Positions 32,709 to 46,269 of a DNA stretch of 64,000 nucleotides are shown here, piece after piece (positions within the stretch are counted from its first letter, which is position 1; each line of letters begins with the position of its first letter). The stretch covers positions 1,736,001 through 1,800,000 of the forward strand of contig NC_083281.1 in NCBI RefSeq assembly GCF_963506605.1. The letters are read 5' to 3'. Position numbers and translations under genes: made by a program. The notes below the pieces were generated by a model that was given only the letters and a program-made list of their open reading frames with translations, made no database searches and was not told the origin of the DNA. This stretch comes from Zootoca vivipara. Taxonomy: Eukaryota.

Positions 32709-32955
32709 ATGCTAGTGGGCTCCTCCGCCTCCGACCTCAACGATTCCTTCCTGTTCCCGAACAGCTCGGCCTGCACCGCAGGGCTGTGGTGCGCCAATGT
32801 CTCGGAGCCCCAGAGCCCACCACGCTTGGTGGATGCATGGCTGGTGCCCCTCTTCTTCGCCGTGCTGATGTTGGTGGGTGTGGCGGGCAACTCCCTCGTG
32901 ATCTACGTCATCGCCAAGCACAAGCAGATGAGGACGGTGACCAATTTCTACATTG
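32709..32955 (+). CDS. KISS1R: Kisspeptin receptor exon 1 (N-terminus with NxS sequons, TM1, ICL1)
   Basis: GCCATGC start; [14 protein letters not shown]...GNSLVIYVI...MRTVTNFYI; GTGAGT donor. Confidence 0.95.
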
Positions 32956-33997: not shown

Positions 33998-34122
33998 CGA
34001 ACCTGGCCGTCACGGATATCATTTTCCTGGTCTGCTGTGTACCGTTCACGGCTGTCCTTTATCCTCTTCCGGGCTGGATATTTGGGGAGTTTATGTGCAA
34101 ATTTGTCAATTACATCCAACAG
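33998..34122 (+). CDS. KISS1R: KISS1R exon 2 ([19 protein letters not shown]...CKFVNYIQQ)
   Basis: 125 nt, AG/GT boundaries, TM2 to TM3. Confidence 0.96.
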
Positions 34123-34568
34123 GTGAGTTTGTGGCTGCTTGCGGGGGAATCTGCCCCCCCCAAAAAAACTTTAAACCATGGGTAGGCAAACTAAGACCCA
34201 GGGACTGGATCCGGCCCAATTGCCTTCTCAATCCGGCCCACGGACGGTCCGGGAATCAGTGTGTTTTTACATGAGTAGAATGTGTGCTTTTATTTGCGGT
34301 GAGTATTTCCCTCTTTACACCTTTTCCATTTGAAGTCTCTCCCCTCATGACATGCTGCAAGTGTCTTGAGGGCGGGGATGCCTTCGCCACTTACCTTCAC
34401 AACAACCCTGTAAGGTAGGGCTGCTGCTAAATATAGGGCGGCACAGAGTTGGTGTGCCGCCGGATTTTTTTTCATAGAACAAGTGTGCCGTGGCTCAAAA
34501 AAGGTTGAGAAACACTGTCCTAACAGGTACATCAAATAAAATCTAATTACAGCAACAGTTTTTTGTAT

Positions 34569-34810
34569 TAGTTACAGGTAGGTAACCATGTTGGTCTGCC
34601 ATAGAAGAAACAAAATAAAACAATTCCTTCCAGCAGCACCTTGGAGACCAACTAAGTTTGTCATTGGTATGAGCTTTCGTCTGCATGCACACTTCTTCAG
34701 ATACCGTCAGATAGTCTTCAGGGTATCCGAAGAAGTGTGCATGCACACGAAAGCTCATACCAATGACAAACTTTGGTCTCTAAGGTGCCACTGGAAGGAA
34801 TTTTTAAAAT
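34569..34810. mobile_element. Penelope-like element fragment with inverted pseudo-LTR (KISS1R intron 2)
   Basis: Long imperfect palindrome sharing sequence with the 38255 and 39425 insertions. Confidence 0.7.
34666..34761. ncRNA. Two divergently oriented hammerhead motifs (34666-34705 minus; 34722-34761 plus with a U4C core change)
   Basis: GGTATCTGAAGAAGTGTGCATGCAGACGAAAGCTCATACC on minus; GGTATCCGAAGAAGTGTGCATGCACACGAAAGCTCATACC on plus. Confidence 0.6.
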
Positions 34811-35050
34811 GGTGTTTTGTGTTGGGTAGGCTCCTAGGATGTACGTCCGTTTGACTTCCGAAATGTTTGGAAACCGAGGCGCGGCTTCTGATTGGCGTAA
34901 GCGCCCCGGAAACAATAGCCGACAGCCGCGTCAGACGTCTGGCTTCCGGAAAACGTGCAGAAACCGGAACAGCCACTTCCGTGGTTTCAGCGTTTGGGAA
35001 CCAAGGTACCACTGTAATAAACACCCCACCCTGTCTTTTTGGCTTCGCAG

Positions 35051-35186
35051 GTCTCTGTGCAAGCCACGTGCATCACCCTGACCGCCATGAGTGTGGACCG
35101 TTGGTACGTGACTGTCTTTCCCCTTCGGGCCCTGCGGCAGCGCACCCCCTTCGTGGCGGCCACCGTCAGTGTCAGCATCTGGGCTG
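35051..35186 (+). CDS. KISS1R: KISS1R exon 3 ([22 protein letters not shown]...SIWA)
   Basis: 136 nt; DRW motif typical of mammalian-type KISS1R. Confidence 0.96.
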
Positions 35187-35865
35187 GTGAGTGGGGGGGG
35201 AATAGCATGGAGGACCCCTCGGTTACCACAAAAGGGGGATTCCTGCCCATTCACCTCGGCCCGAACCTCGGCCAGTGCCCTCGGCCCCTCGCGACCCATC
35301 TCCAGGGATACAGCAGGCTTACGAAAGGGTACCAGTCTATTGTGAATGCTTGAGCTGAGATTCCTGCCTTACAGGGGGTTGGGCTGGGTGACCCTTGGGT
35401 GGGCGGGTGGGGTCTGGGAGGGATTAATCCACTTGGCATTCCTTTCTATGGGAAAGCGCACCTTGGTTTCGGAACGCTTTGGTTTTGGAACGGACTTCCG
35501 GAACGGATTATGTTTGAGGACCAAGGCAGACTTTTGAAAACAACCTCTAAAACTGCAATTTAACATGAATTTTGCCATCTAACGAGACCATTGATCCATA
35601 AAATGAAAGCAATAAACAATGTACCACAGCCACACTCACAAGCAATCCATCAGTAGCTGAACTGGGTTCCACACAGTCACAAAAACAAATAAATAGCAAA
35701 AACACGACAGAACTCAAAACGGAGCACGTTTGGCTTCCGGAAAAAGTTCACAAACCGGAACACTTCCTTCCGGGTTTGCAGTGTTTGGTTTCCAAGTTGT
35801 TTGAGTACCAAGGTGTTTGAGAACCAAGGCACCACTGTATACAATCTATCTTCCATATAGATTGC

Positions 35866-36525
35866 CTTATTTTCATCGGAGAAATGTTGGAGGGGATGGA
35901 ATAGGACGTCCCTATTTTCACCGGAGAAATGTTGGAGGGGATGGAATAGGAAGTCCCTATTTTCATCGGAGAAATGTTGGAGGGGATGGAATAGGACGTC
36001 CCTATTTTCACCGGAGAAATGTTGGAGGGGATGGAATAGGAAGTCCCTATTTTCATTGGAGAAATGTTGGAGGCGATGGAATAGGACGTCCCTATTTTCA
36101 CGGGAGAAACGTTGGAGGGGATGGAATAGGACGTCCCTATTTTCACGGGAGAAATGTTGGAGGGGATGGAATACGATGTCCCTCTATTCATGGGAGAAAC
36201 GTTGGAGGGGATGGAATAGGACGTCCCTATTTTCACCAGAGAAACGTTGGAGGGGATGGAATAGGACGTCCCTATTTTCAGGGGAGAAACGTTGGAGGGG
36301 ATGGAATAGGACGTCCCTATTTTCACTGGAGAAATGTTGGAGGGGATGGAATAGGACGTCCCTATTTTCAGGGGAGAAACGTTGGAGGGGATGGAATAGG
36401 ACGTCCCTATTTTCACCAGAGAAACGTTGGAGGGGATGGAATAGGACGTCCCTATTTTCACTGGAGAAACGTTGGAGGGGATGGAATAGGACGTCCCTGT
36501 TTTCACGGGCGAAATGTTGGAGGGG
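35866..36525. repeat. 45-bp minisatellite, about 14-15 units (KISS1R intron 3)
   Basis: Unit GGGAGAAAYGTTGGAGGGGATGGAATAGGACGTCCCTATTTTCAC. Confidence 0.97.
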
Positions 36526-36957
36526 TATTGCAACACATTAAAACATCAAATGAAACAGTCCAGAACAGTCAGAGTTATGCTGGTTTGAAAACTTATCGTT
36601 AGAGGGCTGGAGACAGCCTGTGTTTTAATCTTGCAAGAATAGAATTTCCTTTTCATTAAATATCTTTGTAGGTTGCCGAACCTCATATAGAAATAACTTT
36701 AACCATTTTTGGGGGGTAATTCCCAAACTGAGCAGTTTGATTTAGTCTTTGTTAAAGTTTAGCATAATTGCAGTGGAGAGTTTGGCTCCTTTTGATATTA
36801 TTCAAACAATAAGATATTAAAAACCTATCTCTAATCTTTTCCCTCTGAGGAAGATAGCTCCAATGAAACGAGAAAATAGCCGGCCCCTCGTTAGGTGAAT
36901 TGATTTATAGTTTATTTTATAAGCATTTAAGTTTCTTCGTTTGACTTTGATTTGGGA

Positions 36958-37205
36958 GTTGTTGTTGTTGTTGTTTAGTCGTTTAGTCGTGTCTGACTCT
37001 TCGTGACCCCATGGACCAGAGCACGCCAGGCCCTCCTGTCTTGCACTGCCTCCCGCAGTTTGGTCAAACTCATGTTCGTAGCTTCGAGAACACTGTCCAA
37101 CCATCTTGTCCTCTGTCGTCCCCTTCTCCTTGTGCCCTCAATCTTTCCCAACATCAGGGTCTTTTCCAAGGATTCTTCTCTTCTCATGAGGTGGCCAAAG
37201 TATTG
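36958..37205 (-). mobile_element. BovB (RTE) LINE 3' end with (CAA)n tail
   Basis: SLEKTLMLGKIEG.RRRGRQR.RWLD...WRALVHGVTKSQTRL is the BovB ORF C-terminus. Confidence 0.92.
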
Positions 37206-37590
37206 GGAGTATTATACCTGATAAATAATTTGGAATAGTCCGAGCTACAGTATATTCCTGAGTATAAGACTACTTTTTAACCCAGGAAAATCAGGGGCCG
37301 TCTTATACGCCGGGTCATATTTCTTATATGGCGAGTATATCCCAAATTCTATATTTTAACTGGAAAAGTTGGGAGTCGTCTTATAAGTTTGTACATTATA
37401 TCTCGTATCAGGGAGATTGTCACGGTGGTTTATCTTAATGTTAGGGGTGCGGCAGTGGGGGGAGTTGTGAGGAATGCCCCCCCCCCCTAAGCAGAGGACA
37501 TTGCCCCACTTGACCTAGGATTCGAGTCGGTCCTGTCCGAGACTTTGGAACTGTTGGGTGAATTTGGGGCCCTGGCCTTTCCGCTTACAG

Positions 37591-37829
37591 GTTCTTTCGC
37601 CATCTCCACTCCGGTTTTGGTCTACAACCAGCTGACGGAAGGCTACTGGTTCGGCCCGCGGACCTACTGCAGCGAGAGCTTCCCGTCCGTCATCCACCAG
37701 ACGGCCTTCATCCTATACAATTTCCTCGTGGTTTACCTTCTCCCCTTGCTGACCATCCTCCTTTGCTACACCGCCATGCTGTACCAGATGGGGAGACCCA
37801 CGGTGGAGGCTTCTGACAACCAATGCCAG
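37591..37829 (+). CDS. KISS1R: KISS1R exon 4 (GSFAISTP...YWFGPRTYCSESFP...TM5...NQCQ)
   Basis: 239 nt, AG/GT boundaries, phase 1-0. Confidence 0.95.
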
Positions 37830-38254
37830 GTATCGCATTGCCGGATGCACGGTGGCGATCTCACAGTCACCATTGGAATTATTTCACCACCATCCCTTGC
37901 AAATCCAGGCTTATTATCAAAATCTTATAAGGGAAAAAAACTGCTCCTTTCCCCTTATGGGGTATCCAAGAGCCCGTATAGAGTCTTTAATTGGGTTCCC
38001 TATCGGTAGGAGGAAACTGCAGAGAGCACAAAAGGAAAGAGGGATGGGGAGGGAAGAGGGAACCAAGCGAGCTCAGGCTCCGACTCTTCAACTTGTAGTT
38101 TATACAATCTCCTGGTGGAATATCTGGTTATGCAATGTGAGAAAGACAAGGCTGGGCTAGGCAGATCTTTCCTACGAGTTATCTTGGTAGTGGCACCCGT
38201 CCTGTGGAACACCCTCCCAGCAGATGTCAAGGCGACAAGTAACTATTTTACTTT

Positions 38255-38461
38255 AAAAAAAATTCCTTCAGTAGCACCTTAAAGACCAACTAAGTTTTTA
38301 TTTCGGTATGAGCTTTCGTGTGCAGGCACACTTCATCAGATACCAAAATGTGCATGCACACGAAAGCTCATACCAAAATAAAAACTTAGTTGGTCTTTAA
38401 GGTGCTACTGAAGGAATTTTTTTAATTTTGTTTCGACTCAGACCAACACGGCTACCCACCT
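38255..38461. mobile_element. Penelope-like inverted pseudo-LTR insertion inside an L2 tail, 16-bp TSD
   Basis: GTAACTATTTTACTTT at 38239-38254 and 38462-38477; palindromic body. Confidence 0.75.
38305..38344 (-). ncRNA. Minimal type I hammerhead ribozyme motif within a Penelope-like element
   Basis: Reverse complement reads GGTAT-CTGATGA-A-GTGTG(CCTG)CACAC-GAAA-GC-TC-ATACC: stem I, CUGANGA core, stem II, GAAA and UH site are all present. Confidence 0.75.
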
Positions 38462-38607
38462 GTAACTATTTTACTTTCAGAAGACAACTGAAGGTGGCCC
38501 TGTTTAGGGAAGTTTTTAATGTTTAATGCTGTACTGTTTTAATATTTGGTTGGAAGCCGCCCAGAGTGGCTGGGAAAACCCAGCCGGATGGGCGGGGAAT
38601 GAATGAA

Positions 38608-38642
<35 letters not shown>

Positions 38643-38704
38643 ATATATATATATTTTAGGAAATAGAGATTGCAAGGAAAAAAACTGCTCCCTTTCCCTT
38701 AAGG

Positions 38705-38841
38705 CAGGCATAGGGCAAACTCGGCCCTCCAGATGTTTTGGGACTACAACTCCCATCACCCCTAGCTAACATGACCAGTGGTCAGGGATGATGGGAATTG
38801 TAGTCTCCAAACATCTGGAGGGCCGAGTTTGCCTTTGCCTG
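38705..38841. mobile_element. Palindromic hAT MITE
   Basis: Almost fully self-complementary; 8-bp TSD CCTTAAGG / CCTTATGG. Confidence 0.85.
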
Positions 38842-39424
38842 CCTTATGGGGTATCCAAGAGCCCGTCTCGAGTCCTTAAGTGGGTTCCCTATCGGTAGGA
38901 GGAAAGAACAGAGGCCAAGCAGAGAATATTGAGAAGAAGCAAAGCGGCTAGTAAGCCTGATCTTTATTAAACTGTTGCAACAGGGTCCCCAATCCCCACA
39001 CGCAGGAGAGAGGAGAACCTCGAACAATGGGTTTTTTTAATAATTTCGATGGCCCTGCATTTTAAAAAGCTACCCCCTCTCTCTACAAGATGCCAGGGGG
39101 TTCTCAACCTGGGTCTGTGTTCCTTTGGAGAACTGAGACGTGGCAGAGACTGTTGTAGCTTCAAGAACCTCACTTCTCCCATGGAGGGAACCGCCAGAAG
39201 GCCCTCGGAGCTGGACCTCAGTGTCCGGGCTGGACGATGGGGGTGGAGATGCTCCTTCAGGTATACAGGGCTATTTAGGACTTTCAAGATCAGCACAAAC
39301 ACATTGCATTGCGCTCAGAAATGTCATGGGAGCCAATGTGGGTCTTTCAGGACCGGTGTTATACGGTCTCGGCGGCCGTTCTCAGTCCCCAGTCTAGCTG
39401 CCACATTCTGGATTAGTTGTAGTT

Positions 39425-39634
39425 ACAGGTAGGTAGCCGTGTTGGTCTGACGTAGTCGAAACAAAATAAAAAAATTCCTTCCAGCAGCACCTTAGAGACC
39501 AACCAAGTTTGTCATAGGTATGAGCTTTCGTGTGCATGTGTGTGTATCTGATGAAGTGCGCATGCACACGAAAGCTCATACCTATGACAAACTTGGTTGG
39601 TCTCTAAGGTGCTGCTGGAAGGAATTTTTTTATT
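39425..39634. mobile_element. Penelope-like inverted pseudo-LTR insertion inside an L2 element, 16-bp TSD
   Basis: TGGATTAGTTGTAGTT at 39409-39424 and 39635-39650; palindromic body. Confidence 0.75.
39543..39582 (+). ncRNA. Minimal hammerhead ribozyme motif, core intact, one stem II mismatch
   Basis: TGTAT-CTGATGA-A-GTGCG(CATG)CACAC-GAAA-GC-TC-ATACC. Confidence 0.6.
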
Positions 39635-39897
39635 TGGATTAGTTGTAGTTTCTGAGTCACTTTCAAAGGGAGCCCCACGGAGAGCCCATGGCAGTAGTCC
39701 AAGCAGGAGATAACCAGAGCATGCACCGCTCTGGCCAGACAGTCTGCGGGCAGGTAAGGTCTCATCCTGCGTACCAGATGGAGCTGGGAGACAGCCGCCC
39801 TGGAGACAGAATTGACCTGCTCCTCCGTGGACAGCAGAGCAGGGACCGCAGAGGCCCAGCCAATCTGATTGCAAGTCCCCTTCTTGACTCCTTGCAG

Positions 39898-40257
39898 GTC
39901 CGGCAGCTGGCCGAGCGCTCGGAAGCCATGCGGGGCAAGATATCGCGCATGGTGGGCACCATCGTGGTTCTCTTCGCCATCTGCTGGGGCCCAATGCAGC
40001 TGCTGATCCTCGCTCAGGCCTTTGGCAGCGGCTTCCGGCGCAACTATTACACCTACAAGCTGAAGATCTGGGCGCACTGCATGTCGTACGCCAGCTCCTC
40101 CCTCAACCCCATCGTCTACGCCTTCATGGGGGCCAATTTCCAGAGGGCTTTCCGGAAAGTCTGCCCCTTCCCCGCGAAGCGCCGGGTGGGCAGCTGCGAG
40201 GCGGCCGGCCGGCCCGGCGCCAACGTGGAGATGCAGTTTGTCTCTTCGGGGATGTAG
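39898..40257 (+). CDS. KISS1R: KISS1R exon 5 (TM6, TM7 with NPIVY, C-tail, stop)
   Basis: CWGP and KIWAHCMSY...NPIVYAFMGANF motifs. The spliced CDS is 1107 nt = 368 aa plus stop, with no frameshift. Confidence 0.96.
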   Translation, partial: VRQLAERSEAMRGKISRMVGTIVVLFAICWGPMQLLILAQAFGSGFRRNYYTYKLKIWAHCMSYASSSLNPIVYAFMGANFQRAFRKVCPFPAKRRVGSCEAAGRPGANVEMQFVSSGM

Positions 40258-41653
40258 GGCCTTCTCTGCGGTGTCCCCGATTCGAAGGGTCTTTTGCAGG
40301 AGCAAAAGCGAGCCAGGTGGCGTTGGGCTTTCCTTTCCCTTGTTCTCTGCGCAGCTGGGCTCGCTCGCTCGAGTCGCCTGGGGCGGTTTCCGCGCCGTTG
40401 CTGCTCTGAAGATGCCCCGGCCCGACAAGGAAACACCCGGGATCGGGGCGAGGAAAGGACGGGGAAGGATGTTGCCAGAGAGGGACGCGAGGGGGGCTAT
40501 TTTGCAGCCGAGGGCCGCTTCCCCTGCCTGCCAAAGCTCCCGGGGGCCACATGCTAGCAATGGGTGGAGCCAGTGGGGATGAGTGGGCAATGGATTTGAA
40601 TATTCGCTTCTGTACTAGGTCCTACACCATCGTTGGAGTTCAAGGCCAACACAGGCAAGAATGGGGGGGGGTGTCACCTGGGGACAGATAGCGAAGGCCA
40701 TGGCGTGCCAGGGGGGTCCCTGAGGTCTCCCCACCAGTCCCAGTAAGCTGCGGAGGGTCCTGGTCTTTGCAATGTTGTTCTTTGCGAGCGCTAAAGAGAG
40801 GACATTCAGGGAAGGCAAAAAAGCAGTGCCGGATTTACGTACAAGCCCTAGCTTAGGGCCCCACTCTCTTGGGACCCCCCAAAAATTAAAGGAAAACAAC
40901 AACCTGTATGTACATTTCCAAAATATAAGATTAAAGACAAATAAAACAAAACCTACATACAGCAACCGTGTTTTGTGTTGTGTAGGCTCCTGTGATGTAA
41001 GTCATGGGCCCCGCCTGCGAGCCTGCTCCCTAAAATATCACTGGTTTGCTCCTTTCTATATATAGGGTGCCTACATTCTGCTGTTTATCATTATTAGTAG
41101 TTTGCATCATATATTTACACCTCTTATTATTTCATGTTCTAGCAAGTTTCTAGAGACCAGATGATGAGTTTTTGTCAATTGTGTTTCCGAAGGAACTTTT
41201 GCTATTGCCAAATGCCAATGTGTTAGCATTATTCAGTTTGTTGTGAATAAAAAAAAAATCATTTCACGTTTGAGCTTCATAATTATTTCACCATTCATAT
41301 ACTTCTTCTTAATTGTATTTCAGTTCAACAAGGACTTTGATAAACTACATATTTTGTGATGTGCACATGGCTTTAGATACCTCCATCAATGACCACATAG
41401 CATATAGTCAACGCAAAAAAACAGCGACAATTTGTTGTTGACAAAGGGCAGCTGGACATAGAAAGGGCCCCATTACCTTCAGGCGCTGAGGGCCGCTTCA
41501 AACCTCAATCTGGCCCTGGGAACAATGGCTACACAACCGCACAGAGGCAGGCGGGCCGGCAAGTCTTGGACTGAGTCCTTCCCTGCTTGGAAAGGGACCC
41601 CAATGGGTCATCTTCTGCAAATGGTCTCCATGCGTGGAATCACAGAATCGTAG

Positions 41654-42352: not shown

Positions 42353-43929
42353 CCCAGCCACCCTGTGTGGCTTGCAGCACAGATAAAAACATAATAAAAT
42401 GCCAAGCTTTAAAAACTCCCCAATGCAAGGCTGCTTTCTGTGTGTTTGTGTGTGTGGAGCTTGTGTAGGGTTTGTATATTAAGAGACATACGGCAAAGCG
42501 TTACCCAAAGAGATATTTGTAGGGCTTGAGGTAAGGTGGAGTCCAGTGGGCGGGACCTTTGAAGTGTGCTGCGTGCTGATTTGCTGAGGACAGAGCATGA
42601 CGGGCAGGTGACAGGGCAGTTAAAGGCAGTTGGGCTTGGGAGGGGGGACAGGGAGGACGGCGTCTGGTTTGGGCAGTAAGGAACAGTGGTTAGAGCAGGC
42701 AGGATAGGATTAGGAAGTTAACCCATGCCACAAAACGCACCAAAACGTGCTACTGGAAGAATTTTTTTTAATTTTGTTTGTCCTAAACCCTGTTTATTGA
42801 GAGCAAACCTTGCAAAAACTGGTTTTACTATAATAATAAAATTTTAAAAATTCAACTTCTTTCTCCAAACTGCGTCTCATCTTTGGCCAGGCTATCGCGG
42901 ACGTGGCAGAGTCTGTCAAGAGTGTCCGGAGAAGTCCATGAGTTAGGCGACTGCTTGAGTCCTGGAAGGGGACCCCAGGGGTCATCTAGTCCAACCCTCT
43001 TTAGTGCAGAAATCCCAGTCCTCACGGTAGCTAACAAAATGCCGTTATACAAAGTCTGCTGAGCAGACTTCAGGAAATCCATTTCTGGGGCTCGGACAAG
43101 CTGATTTTCCTCCGGAGGGGCAGTTTGGTCTCCGCAGACGAAAGACTTCAATGAGTCTCATCTTCAGGAAGGAGCGAGGAACCTGCCCGGCTGAGGTCAT
43201 CCAAAATTTGGCAGTCCTGGCTGGATGCAAAACTGGTTCCTTGTTATTTAGGCCTCAATAACAAATATACAAATTCCAAAGAGACAGACTGAAAGGAGAG
43301 GCGGATGGTTTTTGCCCAGTTATCCGAGAGATCTAAAAAAATATACTTTTGCCCAGAAAATGTTGACCTTGGGGCAGTCCCGCAAACAGACCGGGGGGGG
43401 GGGGGTGTCTCAGTATCCTGGCATAGCGACAAGGCCCCCTCTAGGCGTACAAAATAAATTAATTGCAATGTCCCCGGTTCATGCCGGAAAATGATCTCTG
43501 CGCAGACCTCAGAGCAGAAGTTTCCCCCATCTTCTTCTCGTACCCGAACTTTCCAGAAGAGTCCATTCTTTGTGGCCGCATATCTGTTGGGACGAAAAGG
43601 AAAAGCTTCGGGCTTTTTTGGTACCATCACATCTTTTTCATCTCGTCGTATATCGTCTCCCAAAACTCCCTCTCTTTCCTACAATGGCACCACATGCGGG
43701 AAGAAGCGTCCTGCTTGCATTTCCAGCCGTTATTAGGAATCTCGGTCAGCTTACTAGGCACAGAGCGCGAGATCTGAACTCGATAGATGAAAATAGCGGA
43801 AATAATTTTTTTATACGCGGCTCTCGGACAATACGGGCTGGAAGGCAAGTGAGCTTGCAACGGGGAGCTGCCTTCCGCTATCCCTTCAAGGAGGATGTGA
43901 GGCAGATGGGGGGCCCAGATGACTCCCGG

Positions 43930-44466
<537 letters not shown>

Positions 44467-44546
44467 TCAGTGCTAGCAGAGCTTCCAAGCATTCTGGTTT
44501 TCCAGGGACAGTCCTGGATGGCCAGAAGCCATCCCGCTTTTCCTTA

Positions 44547-45771
44547 GGATGCCTCTATTTTCAAGGGAGAAATGTTGGAGGGGATGGAATAGGACGTCCC
44601 TATTTTCAGGGGAGAAACGTTCGAGGGGATGGAAAAGGATGCCCGTATTTTCACGGGAGAAATGTTGGAGGAGATGGAATAGGACATCCCTATTTTCACG
44701 GAACGTTGGAGGGGATGGAATAGGACGTCCCTATTTTCACGGGAGAAACCTTGGAGGGGATGGAATAGGACGTCCCTATTTTCACAGGAGAAACGTTGGA
44801 GGGGATGGAATAGGACGTCCCTATTTTCACGGGAGAAATGTTGGAGGGGATGGAATAGGACGTCCCTATTTTCAGGGGAGAAACGCTCGAGGGGATGGAA
44901 AAGGATGCCCGTATTTTCACGGGAGAAATGTTGGAGGGGATGGAATAGGACATCCCTATTTTCACGGAACGTTGGAGGGGATGGAATAGGACGTCCCTAT
45001 TTTCACGGGAGAAACCTTGGAGGGGATGGAATAGGACGTCCCTATTTTCACAGGAGAAACGTTGGAGGGGATGGAATAGGACGTCCCTATTTTCACAGGA
45101 GAAACGTTGGAGGGGATGGAATAGGACGTCCCTATTTTCACGGGAGAAATGTTGGAGGGGATGGAATAGGACGTCCCTATTTTCAGGGGAGAAACGCTCG
45201 AGGGGATGGAAAAGGATGCCCGTATTTTCACGGGAGAAATGTTGGAGGGGATGGAATAGGACATCCCTATTTTCACGGGAGAAACGTTGGAGGGGATGGA
45301 ATAGGACGTCCCTATTTTCACGGGAGAAACCTTGGAGGGGATGGAATAGGACGTCCCTATTTTCACGGGAGAAATGTTGGAGGGGATGGAATAGGACGTC
45401 CCTATTTTCACGGGAGAAATGTTAGAGGGAATGGAATAGGACGTCCCTATTTTCACGGGAGAAACGTTGGAGGGGATGGAATAGGACGTCCCTATTTTCA
45501 CGGGAGAAACGTTGGAGGGGATGGAATAGGACGTCCCTATTTTCACGGGAGAAACGTTGGAGGGGATGGAATAGGACGTCCCTATTTTCAAGGGAGAAAT
45601 GTTGGAGGGGATGGAATAGGACGTCCCTATTTTCAGGGGAGAAACGTTGGAGGGGATGGAATAGAACGTCCCAATTTTCAAGGGAGAAACATTGGAGGGG
45701 ATGGAATAGGACGTCCCTATTTTCAAGGGAGAAACGTTGGAGGGGATGGAATAGGACGTCCCTATTTTCAT
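44547..45771. repeat. 45-bp minisatellite, about 27 units, same family (predicted RNF224 intron)
   Basis: Same unit, with variant units recurring at 266/311-bp spacing. Confidence 0.97.
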
Positions 45772-46269
45772 CAAATGAAACAGTCGAGAACAGAACCAAT
45801 TAAAGCTTCAAGGAAACTCTTTCAGATCCTTCTCGAAGGGATACTTTGCTTTCCCCATATTTATTTACCGACTTGATTTATAGAGCTACTGCCATAACAG
45901 CAGGACTCTAGGAAGACAGTGGGGTGCAGTGGTTAGAGGGTCAGACTAGGACCCGGGAGATCAGGGTTCGAATCCCCTCTCCGTCAATAAGCTCACTGGG
46001 TTACCTTGGAGTCAGTCGCAGCCTCTTGGCCTACCTTGCAGGTCTGGTCATCGTAGGGATTAACTGAGTGGGGGGGGGCGAACCAGGGACTCCTTGGGAG
46101 AAAAGGGTGGGATAAAGACACAGGGGATAAGCTCTTCCACTGCCTGCTGGAGAAAGCTGGAGGGGCCAGCAGAATGGAGATGTTCTGGCACCCAGAGATC
46201 GGTTGCAAAACGCGCCTGGCTAATTTCTAACACCGGCTTCATGCAAACACCGGACAGGAGAAAACTTAC

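What the first reader, a model, noticed from the sequence alone, without database searches (positions are those of the whole stretch)
34569..39650. Cluster of hammerhead-ribozyme-bearing Penelope-like palindromes in KISS1R introns
Seen: three ~200-240 bp palindromic insertions (34569-34810, 38255-38461, 39425-39634), two with 16-bp TSDs. They share the 40-nt motif GGTAT-CTGAWGA-A-GTGTG(N4)CACAC-GAAA-GC-TC-ATACC. This folds as stem I (GGUAU/AUACC), CUGANGA core, stem II, GAAA, a vestigial stem III with the palindrome AGCU, and a UC cleavage site. Established: Penelope-like retroelements carry minimal type I hammerheads in their pseudo-LTRs, insert as inverted 5'-truncated pLTRs, and such minimal motifs are thought to cleave as dimers. 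Inference: this lizard has a recently active ribozyme-carrying PLE family that hit this reproductive-control gene three times. The copy at 38305-38344 is fully canonical but antisense. The sense copies are each damaged (U4C at 34722, truncation at 38349, stem mismatch at 39543). That could reflect selection against pre-mRNA cleavage, but the sample is tiny.
Basis: partly seen in the sequence, partly recalled or inferred. Interest (0 to 1): 0.75.

Follow-up and report, generated by a model that had tools for sequence, protein, structure and literature searches.

The report
Penelope retroelement stumps in KISS1R introns
These three mirror-image insertions in the introns of a kisspeptin-receptor gene are short stumps of a very common Penelope-type jumping gene that carries an already known kind of minimal hammerhead motif; they are likely harmless passengers, and the family's copies suggest that such stumps form when the start of the element's RNA is copied onto both cut DNA strands.

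Summary
The three palindromes, their motif and their place in KISS1R introns 2 and 4 are real. They are 5'-truncated, inverted pseudo-LTR stumps of an endonuclease-bearing Penelope-like element (Neptune-type linker). The same arm lies behind an RT + GIY-YIG frame elsewhere in the genome. The family is huge: 23,213 exact copies of a 27-mer and at least 6,254 palindromes. The hammerhead fits the published minimal type I form; cleavage is untested. The selection idea is not supported: the 'mismatch' at 39543 is the family's own base, cores are intact in 1 of 3 sense and 2 of 3 antisense arms, and each sense motif is predicted to be trapped in its own hairpin. Across 50 other palindromes, one arm has a tail and the other usually stops at a TATA/initiator-predicted RNA start (29 of 50 against 6 of 50). 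This fits two cDNAs primed from both cut strands. A modest excess of copies starting at the predicted cleavage site (84 against 30 and 16) hints at some cleavage in vivo. The scan noted this architecture and model before in other genomes.

The parts
32709..32955 (+). KISS1R exon 1
33998..34122 (+). KISS1R exon 2
34558..34569 (+). E1 left target duplication (10 of 12 identical to 34812-34823)
   Evidence: D17/D18; single copy in the empty related repeat at 40968-40979
34570..34707 (-). E1 tailed arm (-7..+127 relative to C3); hammerhead 34667-34704 with intact core and a stem II substitution at 34681
34717..34805 (+). E1 tailless arm (to +81); hammerhead 34723-34760 with U4C at 34728
34812..34823 (+). 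E1 right target duplication
35051..35186 (+). KISS1R exon 3
37591..37829 (+). KISS1R exon 4
   Evidence: low RNA depth in run X23
38239..38254 (+). E2 left 16-bp duplication (first 5 letters also match the element's tail end)
38255..38343 (-). E2 tailless arm (-4..+84); hammerhead 38306-38343, core and stems intact, one loop change
38346..38461 (+). E2 tailed arm, truncated near the start of stem II (no CUGANGA)
38462..38477 (+). E2 right 16-bp duplication
39409..39424 (+). E3 left 16-bp duplication
39425..39538 (-). E3 tailed arm (+13..+127), truncated in the stem II loop
39543..39634 (+). E3 tailless arm (-5..+83); hammerhead 39544-39581, core intact, stem II substitution at 39559
39635..39650 (+). 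E3 right 16-bp duplication
39898..40257 (+). KISS1R exon 5

Best explanation
The three palindromes are minimal insertions of an abundant, recently active Penelope-like retroelement, each likely built on the spot from two short cDNAs of the element's RNA start, and they are likely neutral passengers in KISS1R introns. Shown: each arm is the hammerhead-bearing pseudo-LTR of an element with one RT + GIY-YIG frame. Arm 3' ends fall in two groups (about +83-93 and +122-129 from C3), 5' ends pile up at -7..-1, and insertions have 11-16 bp duplications. Inferred: a TATA box at -35 and an initiator with its A at -7 start the RNA just before the hammerhead. The protein would nick both target strands about 12 bp apart. 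Each nick would prime reverse transcription at one of two internal sites in the 5' leader. The shorter cDNA would usually run off the RNA's 5' end, and the two cDNAs would join in the middle through short homologies, often in the self-complementary stem II. The hammerhead is predicted to cut weakly, as a dimer or with protein help, in the element's own RNA. In KISS1R pre-mRNA it is predicted to be locked in a long hairpin.
For: PLE link: the arm starts about 190 bp after a 789-aa RVT_1 + GIY-YIG frame in L067, and it matches in 28 of 30 GIY-YIG loci L037-L066, mostly 200-350 bp downstream of the domain match. L189 shows ORF end, pseudo-LTR, ATG at +133 and the next ORF; tandem copies are 3,030 bp apart. 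Abundance. TATA-like box at -36..-34 in all 35 copies where the pattern was found, with an initiator-like stretch at -10..-5; the same layout is described in PMC3846280. In 50 palindromes the shorter arm ends at -7..-1 in 29 and the longer arm in 6 (Fisher p 2e-6); among 43 with a clear tail/no-tail pair the discordant counts are 23 to 2. In the random set, 12 of 47 arms end at -6..-1. The tailed arm reaches about 40 bases beyond its partner, so it cannot be a copy of the partner alone. About 45 different junctions in 50 (hand count). Duplications of 11-16 bp in 30 of 50, mode 12. PMC11167929 reports in vitro nicking and extension of both strands, two internal start sites and a predicted dimer for a related element. 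Hairpins of -118 to -143 kcal/mol pair the sense motifs with their partner arms.
Against: No biochemical test; the RNA start is predicted only, and RNA reads showed no pile-up there. The 50 palindromes were chosen with a spacer limit of 110 and come from the first 6 Mb of one contig; two of them (L230, L231) belong to one compound insertion. 14 of 47 random arms run on upstream of -7, so read-through templates are also common. 11 of 50 had no exact duplication found. All three family insertions in the window's 48 kb of unduplicated sequence lie in KISS1R introns; Poisson P = 2.5e-4 for a gene chosen in advance.
Confidence: 0.75

Rival explanations
1. Same element, but the palindrome forms by fold-back self-priming or a template switch of one cDNA (or on an antisense template, as proposed in PMC3846280), not by two target-primed cDNAs.
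For: Junctions often lie in the self-complementary stem II or use stem I homology; some are perfect palindromes centred on stem II (L221; L092, L106). Junction reiterations show template jumping (L217, L240, L253, L263). Both arms carry the same subfamily letters in nearly all cases (by eye).
Against: The arm that reaches the RNA start is usually the tailless one, and its partner extends about 40 bases further out, which one fold-back cannot template. Both outer ends face the flanks as target priming predicts.
Confidence: 0.2
2. One reading: selection removed active sense-strand hammerheads from KISS1R introns because they would cut the pre-mRNA.
For: The only arm with unchanged core and stems is antisense (38306-38343). 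The one core mutation is on the sense strand. A preprint reports depletion of tandem retrozymes from Xenopus introns (10.64898/2026.07.22.740005, passages).
Against: Sense 1 of 3 and antisense 2 of 3 core-intact. 39543 is the parent base. Truncation of one arm is the rule. Random copies show 5 of 26 core-damaged. Sense motifs are predicted to be hairpin-locked. Published minimal motifs do not cut as monomers (PMC4209133) or need the element's protein (PMC11167929).
Confidence: 0.05
3. The palindrome is itself a mobile unit (MITE-like or retrozyme-like) copied whole.
For: At least 6,254 palindromes; three junction types recur two or three times in 50.
Against: About 45 distinct junctions in 50, several subfamilies, arm lengths from tens to hundreds of bases, and asymmetric ends instead of terminal inverted repeats.
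Confidence: 0.04

Closest known systems
Insertions of endonuclease-bearing PLEs with inverted pseudo-LTR, optional tail and short duplication (Pen2a_Av, PMC3846280, passages; overview PMC8557442, passages)
   Same: Head-to-head inverted pseudo-LTRs, one about 40 bp shorter; tail at one end; target duplication; TATA and initiator-like motifs; partial tandems
   Different: Here most insertions are pseudo-LTR-only stumps of about 200-240 bp, with an estimated 26,000 palindromes per genome; duplications are about 12 bp rather than 8-10; the ATG lies at +133, beyond the tail
Minimal type I hammerheads of metazoan PLEs (PMC4209133, parts 1-2 of 4 read: results and discussion)
   Same: Core boxes, extra base between 9 and 10.1, G10.1-C11.1, palindromic 15.2-16.2 without loop 3, 4-bp helix I; the paper notes opposite-strand pairs 100-700 bp apart and motifs in turtle and snakes
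   Different: Helix II is 5-6 bp (7-8 in Schistosoma) and is a perfect 14-base palindrome; the motif is highly uniform within this genome
Poseidon element of Anolis carolinensis, PAc (PMC11167929, parts 1-2 of 4 read)
   Same: Hammerhead in the pseudo-LTR, two 3' end positions matching two reverse-transcription starts, tandem organisation
   Different: PAc is Penelope/Poseidon clade with the ORF starting in stem II; this element has the Cys linker of Neptune/Nematis and starts its ORF 133 bases after C3
Non-LTR retrozymes (10.64898/2026.07.22.740005, abstract, introduction, methods, passages)
   Same: Non-coding, hammerhead-bearing, PLE-derived
   Different: Retrozymes are head-to-tail tandems; these are inverted pairs. 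Locus L165 elsewhere in the genome is a head-to-tail array

Membership tests
EN+ Penelope-like element | Single ORF with RT and C-terminal GIY-YIG endonuclease linked to the repeat | tested here: met
EN+ Penelope-like element | Tandem or partial-tandem copies forming pseudo-LTRs | tested here: met
   L189; 3,030-bp spacing
EN+ Penelope-like element | Inverted truncated copy, 30-40 bp tail at one end, target duplication | tested here: met
EN+ Penelope-like element | RT groups with PLE RTs in a tree | not tested
   No reference PLE proteins were on hand; no tree built
Neptune (or Nematis) clade | CX2-5CxxC linker between RT and endonuclease | tested here: met
   C-x4-C-x2-C before the GIY-YIG region; definition from PMC8557442. 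Does not separate Neptune from Nematis
Minimal type I hammerhead | CUGANGA, GAAA and UH boxes with helices I and II | tested here: met
   intact in 3 of 4 full-length window motifs
Minimal type I hammerhead | Extra base between 9 and 10.1; G10.1-C11.1; palindromic 15.2-16.2 | tested here: met
   columns; criteria from PMC4209133
Minimal type I hammerhead | Compensatory changes in the stems | not tested
   Stems are nearly invariant within the genome; no cross-species alignment made
Minimal type I hammerhead | Self-cleavage as dimer or with protein | not testable with these tools
   Indirect only: inconclusive
Rfam hammerhead families | Match to a covariance model | tested here: not met
   no hammerhead family among 41 matches at E <= 10
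MITE or self-copying palindrome | Uniform copies with symmetric terminal repeats and one shared centre | tested here: not met
Non-LTR retrozyme | Head-to-tail tandem units each with a hammerhead | tested here: not met
   Window copies are inverted pairs

The most novel reading that the evidence does not exclude
The tens of thousands of stumps are a fossil record of Penelope integration: a protein dimer primes two cDNAs from both nicked strands at two fixed leader sites, the tailless one runs off the transcription start, and a small but real class of copies begins exactly at the hammerhead cleavage site, which would be genomic evidence that a vertebrate minimal hammerhead cuts in the germ line.
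Probability: 0.35. Interest if true: 0.6.

Novelty: new member of a known kind. Interest (0 to 1): 0.28.

Why it matters
For KISS1R it probably does not matter: these are three of an estimated 65,000 insertions. For retroelement biology, how PLEs make inverted pseudo-LTRs and whether their minimal hammerheads cut in vivo are open questions (PMC3846280, PMC11167929). This young family with long open ORFs gives position-level predictions that can be tested: RNA start at -7, reverse-transcription starts near +88 and +127, a 12-bp stagger and a cut between +29 and +30.

Tried and rejected
Rfam gave no hammerhead match. A 3' splice site at -5 as cause of the truncation pile-up was considered and set aside: the AG is lost in 25 of 71 copies, including the L067/L189 type, while the initiator-like sequence and TATA spacing stay. 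The look-up of sequencing runs: no RNA holder listed. Raw RNA runs X21-X23 (about 6% of each read, one study) showed high depth only over the pseudo-LTR; 66-91% of laid reads run on into unlike sequence, and no pile of ends was listed at the predicted start or cleavage site. Ordinary RNA-seq is weak for that question. Laying three contig sets and one RNA run on 37400-40400 showed no empty-site joint among the rows displayed; repeats swamped the tables and 614 joints were not shown. Among the 50 palindromes only 4 of 100 arms begin at +28..+30, no visible peak. The predicted dimer fold paired the two stem II palindromes with each other rather than giving the dimeric helix III. The assembly duplication could not be judged from contig depths. 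Paper searches with no hit: Penelope + pLTR + twin priming; KISS1R + intron + transposable element + lizard. One search gave three papers that look unrelated by listing. The library lacks most subscription papers and repeat databases, and no supplements were read.
Full report
OBSERVATION. The three palindromes are present. Arm-to-arm identity in the best local alignment is 76/81, 73/75 and 74/74. E2 and E3 have exact 16-bp flanking repeats. E1 has a decayed 12-bp one, shown by an uninterrupted related repeat at 40941-41003. The host gene is KISS1R on the + strand: five GT-AG exons give 368 aa, and exon 5 hits the KiSS-1 receptor at E 6e-32, far above other receptors. E1 lies in intron 2; E2 and E3 lie in intron 4. 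Positions below count from hammerhead C3 = 0.

WHAT IT IS. A GIY-YIG search of the genome gave 2,846 candidates, 150 scored. The E1 arm matched 28 of the 30 loci returned. L067 holds a 789-aa open frame with RVT_1 (E 1.4e-12) and GIY-YIG (E 1.8e-5), and the arm begins about 190 bp after its stop. L189 shows the junction of two tandem copies: ORF end, pseudo-LTR, then an ATG at +133 opening at least 728 codons. Two pairs of tandem copies are 3,030 bp apart. A C-x4-C-x2-C linker precedes the endonuclease, the mark of Neptune and Nematis in PMC8557442 (passages). No tree was built. All 40 scored copies of a 301-bp ORF stretch were listed at 100% rounded identity, so the family is young.

ABUNDANCE. 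A 27-base piece of the motif occurs exactly 23,213 times, with reversed control 0. An exact two-anchor palindrome pattern occurs 6,254 times, control 0. Sixty 10-kb stretches at round coordinates (nine of them within 3 Mb of a contig start) held 27 insertions, 11 of them palindromes. That extrapolates to about 65,000 and 26,000. Three palindromes in 6.4 kb of introns have Poisson P = 2.5e-4, yet about 56 such stretches are expected in the genome. Pairs within 10 kb occur in the random set. Against this reading, the rest of the window's 48 kb of unduplicated sequence has no such insertion.

THE RIBOZYME. In 71 copies that extend natively upstream, the core is nearly invariant and position -5 is T in 69 (the set was picked with a pattern that fixes part of the core). 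Stem I is therefore 4 bp. The motif has the traits listed in PMC4209133: an extra base after A9, G10.1-C11.1 and palindromic 15.2-16.2. That paper found no monomer cleavage and low dimer cleavage for a schistosome motif. PMC11167929 found that an anole motif cut only with the element's protein and was not needed for insertion in vitro. Rfam has no matching model. Activity here is untested.

SELECTION IDEA. Each of the four full-length window motifs is one change from the parent: sense E1 U4C, sense E3 stem II, antisense E1 stem II, antisense E2 loop. The other two arms, one per strand, are truncated. Core-intact arms are thus 1 of 3 sense and 2 of 3 antisense. In 690 kb of random DNA 21 of 26 real full-length motifs had an intact core. 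Only 8 of 50 palindromes have both arms reaching C3, and 41 of 50 have at least one. On either strand the readable hammerhead is the second arm transcribed, and folding pairs it with the first at -118 to -143 kcal/mol. Orientation to the host gene therefore means little for palindromes. The genome-wide intron test could not be run without annotation.

MECHANISM. In the random set the 47 arm 3' ends fall in two groups, mostly +82-93 and +122-129. Of the 5' ends, 12 lie at -6..-1, 14 are spread from -718 to -18, and 21 lie downstream. In the first 50 palindromes listed, the shorter arm ends at -7..-1 in 29 and the longer arm in 6. Upstream, a TATA-like box sits at -36..-34 and an initiator-like stretch has its A at -7, the layout noted for a rotifer pseudo-LTR in PMC3846280 (passages). 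I infer that the pile-up marks the RNA's start. Both arms point their 3' ends at the flanks, the duplications are mostly 11-16 bp, and the tailed arm extends beyond its partner. This fits two target-primed cDNAs joined in the middle, and it matches the both-strand extension and two start sites of PMC11167929. I wrote this model down before the look-up showed that the scan had reached it in other genomes. Fold-back priming remains a rival.

CLEAVAGE SIGNAL. By hand count 37 of the 84 begin with AG or GT, which stem I or self-homology could explain; 47 remain. Of the first 20 of those, 16 start at +30 on inspection (8 as solo arms, 7 in palindromes, 1 after an internal deletion), 3 are local duplications and 1 is a palindrome junction that the alignment reads through. 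Of 10 controls each, 8 were true starts at +27 (all in palindromes) and 8 at +33 (3 solo). The excess is about two- to five-fold over only two control positions, and other positions such as +13 are hot spots too. It is a hint, not evidence of activity. Such copies are a small share of the family. RNA reads gave no support either way.

VERDICT. A real, correctly recognised, ordinary product of a known kind of element. The gene-specific story is not supported. The value lies in the family-wide end statistics, which make the integration model testable.

Noticed in passing
window 14189-48284, repeated from 48285 to 18.4 kb past the window end (L032-L033): A 34.1-kb tandem duplication at about 99.86% identity that contains all of KISS1R, the three palindromes and a RING-finger gene. 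It may be a real copy-number variant or an uncollapsed haplotype.
   Followed up: partly
L165:2320-4741 (G000:C1:2777-2780 kb): Four head-to-tail 598-bp units, 99% identical to the parent, each with the endonuclease end, the pseudo-LTR with an intact hammerhead and 80 bp beyond the tail: a retrozyme-like array in which dimer cleavage would be possible.
   Followed up: partly
window 35865-36525 and 44545-45793: Two arrays of the same 45-bp minisatellite, one in KISS1R intron 3.
   Followed up: no
window 44044-44463 (-): An open frame with a RING-type zinc finger downstream of KISS1R (Pfam PF13445).
   Followed up: no
window 38714-38833: An unrelated 120-bp palindrome with 50-bp arms in intron 4, very abundant in sequencing runs; probably a small DNA-transposon derivative.
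   Followed up: no
window 42744-42789: A short fragment of the same pseudo-LTR's 3' part.
   Followed up: no
L217, L240, L253, L263, L278, L284: Short reiterations of element sequence at the junctions, suggesting repeated slippage of the reverse transcriptase at template ends.
   Followed up: no
L068, L069: Frames in which LINE-type coding sequence runs into this element's ORF without a stop; probably nested insertions.
   Followed up: no
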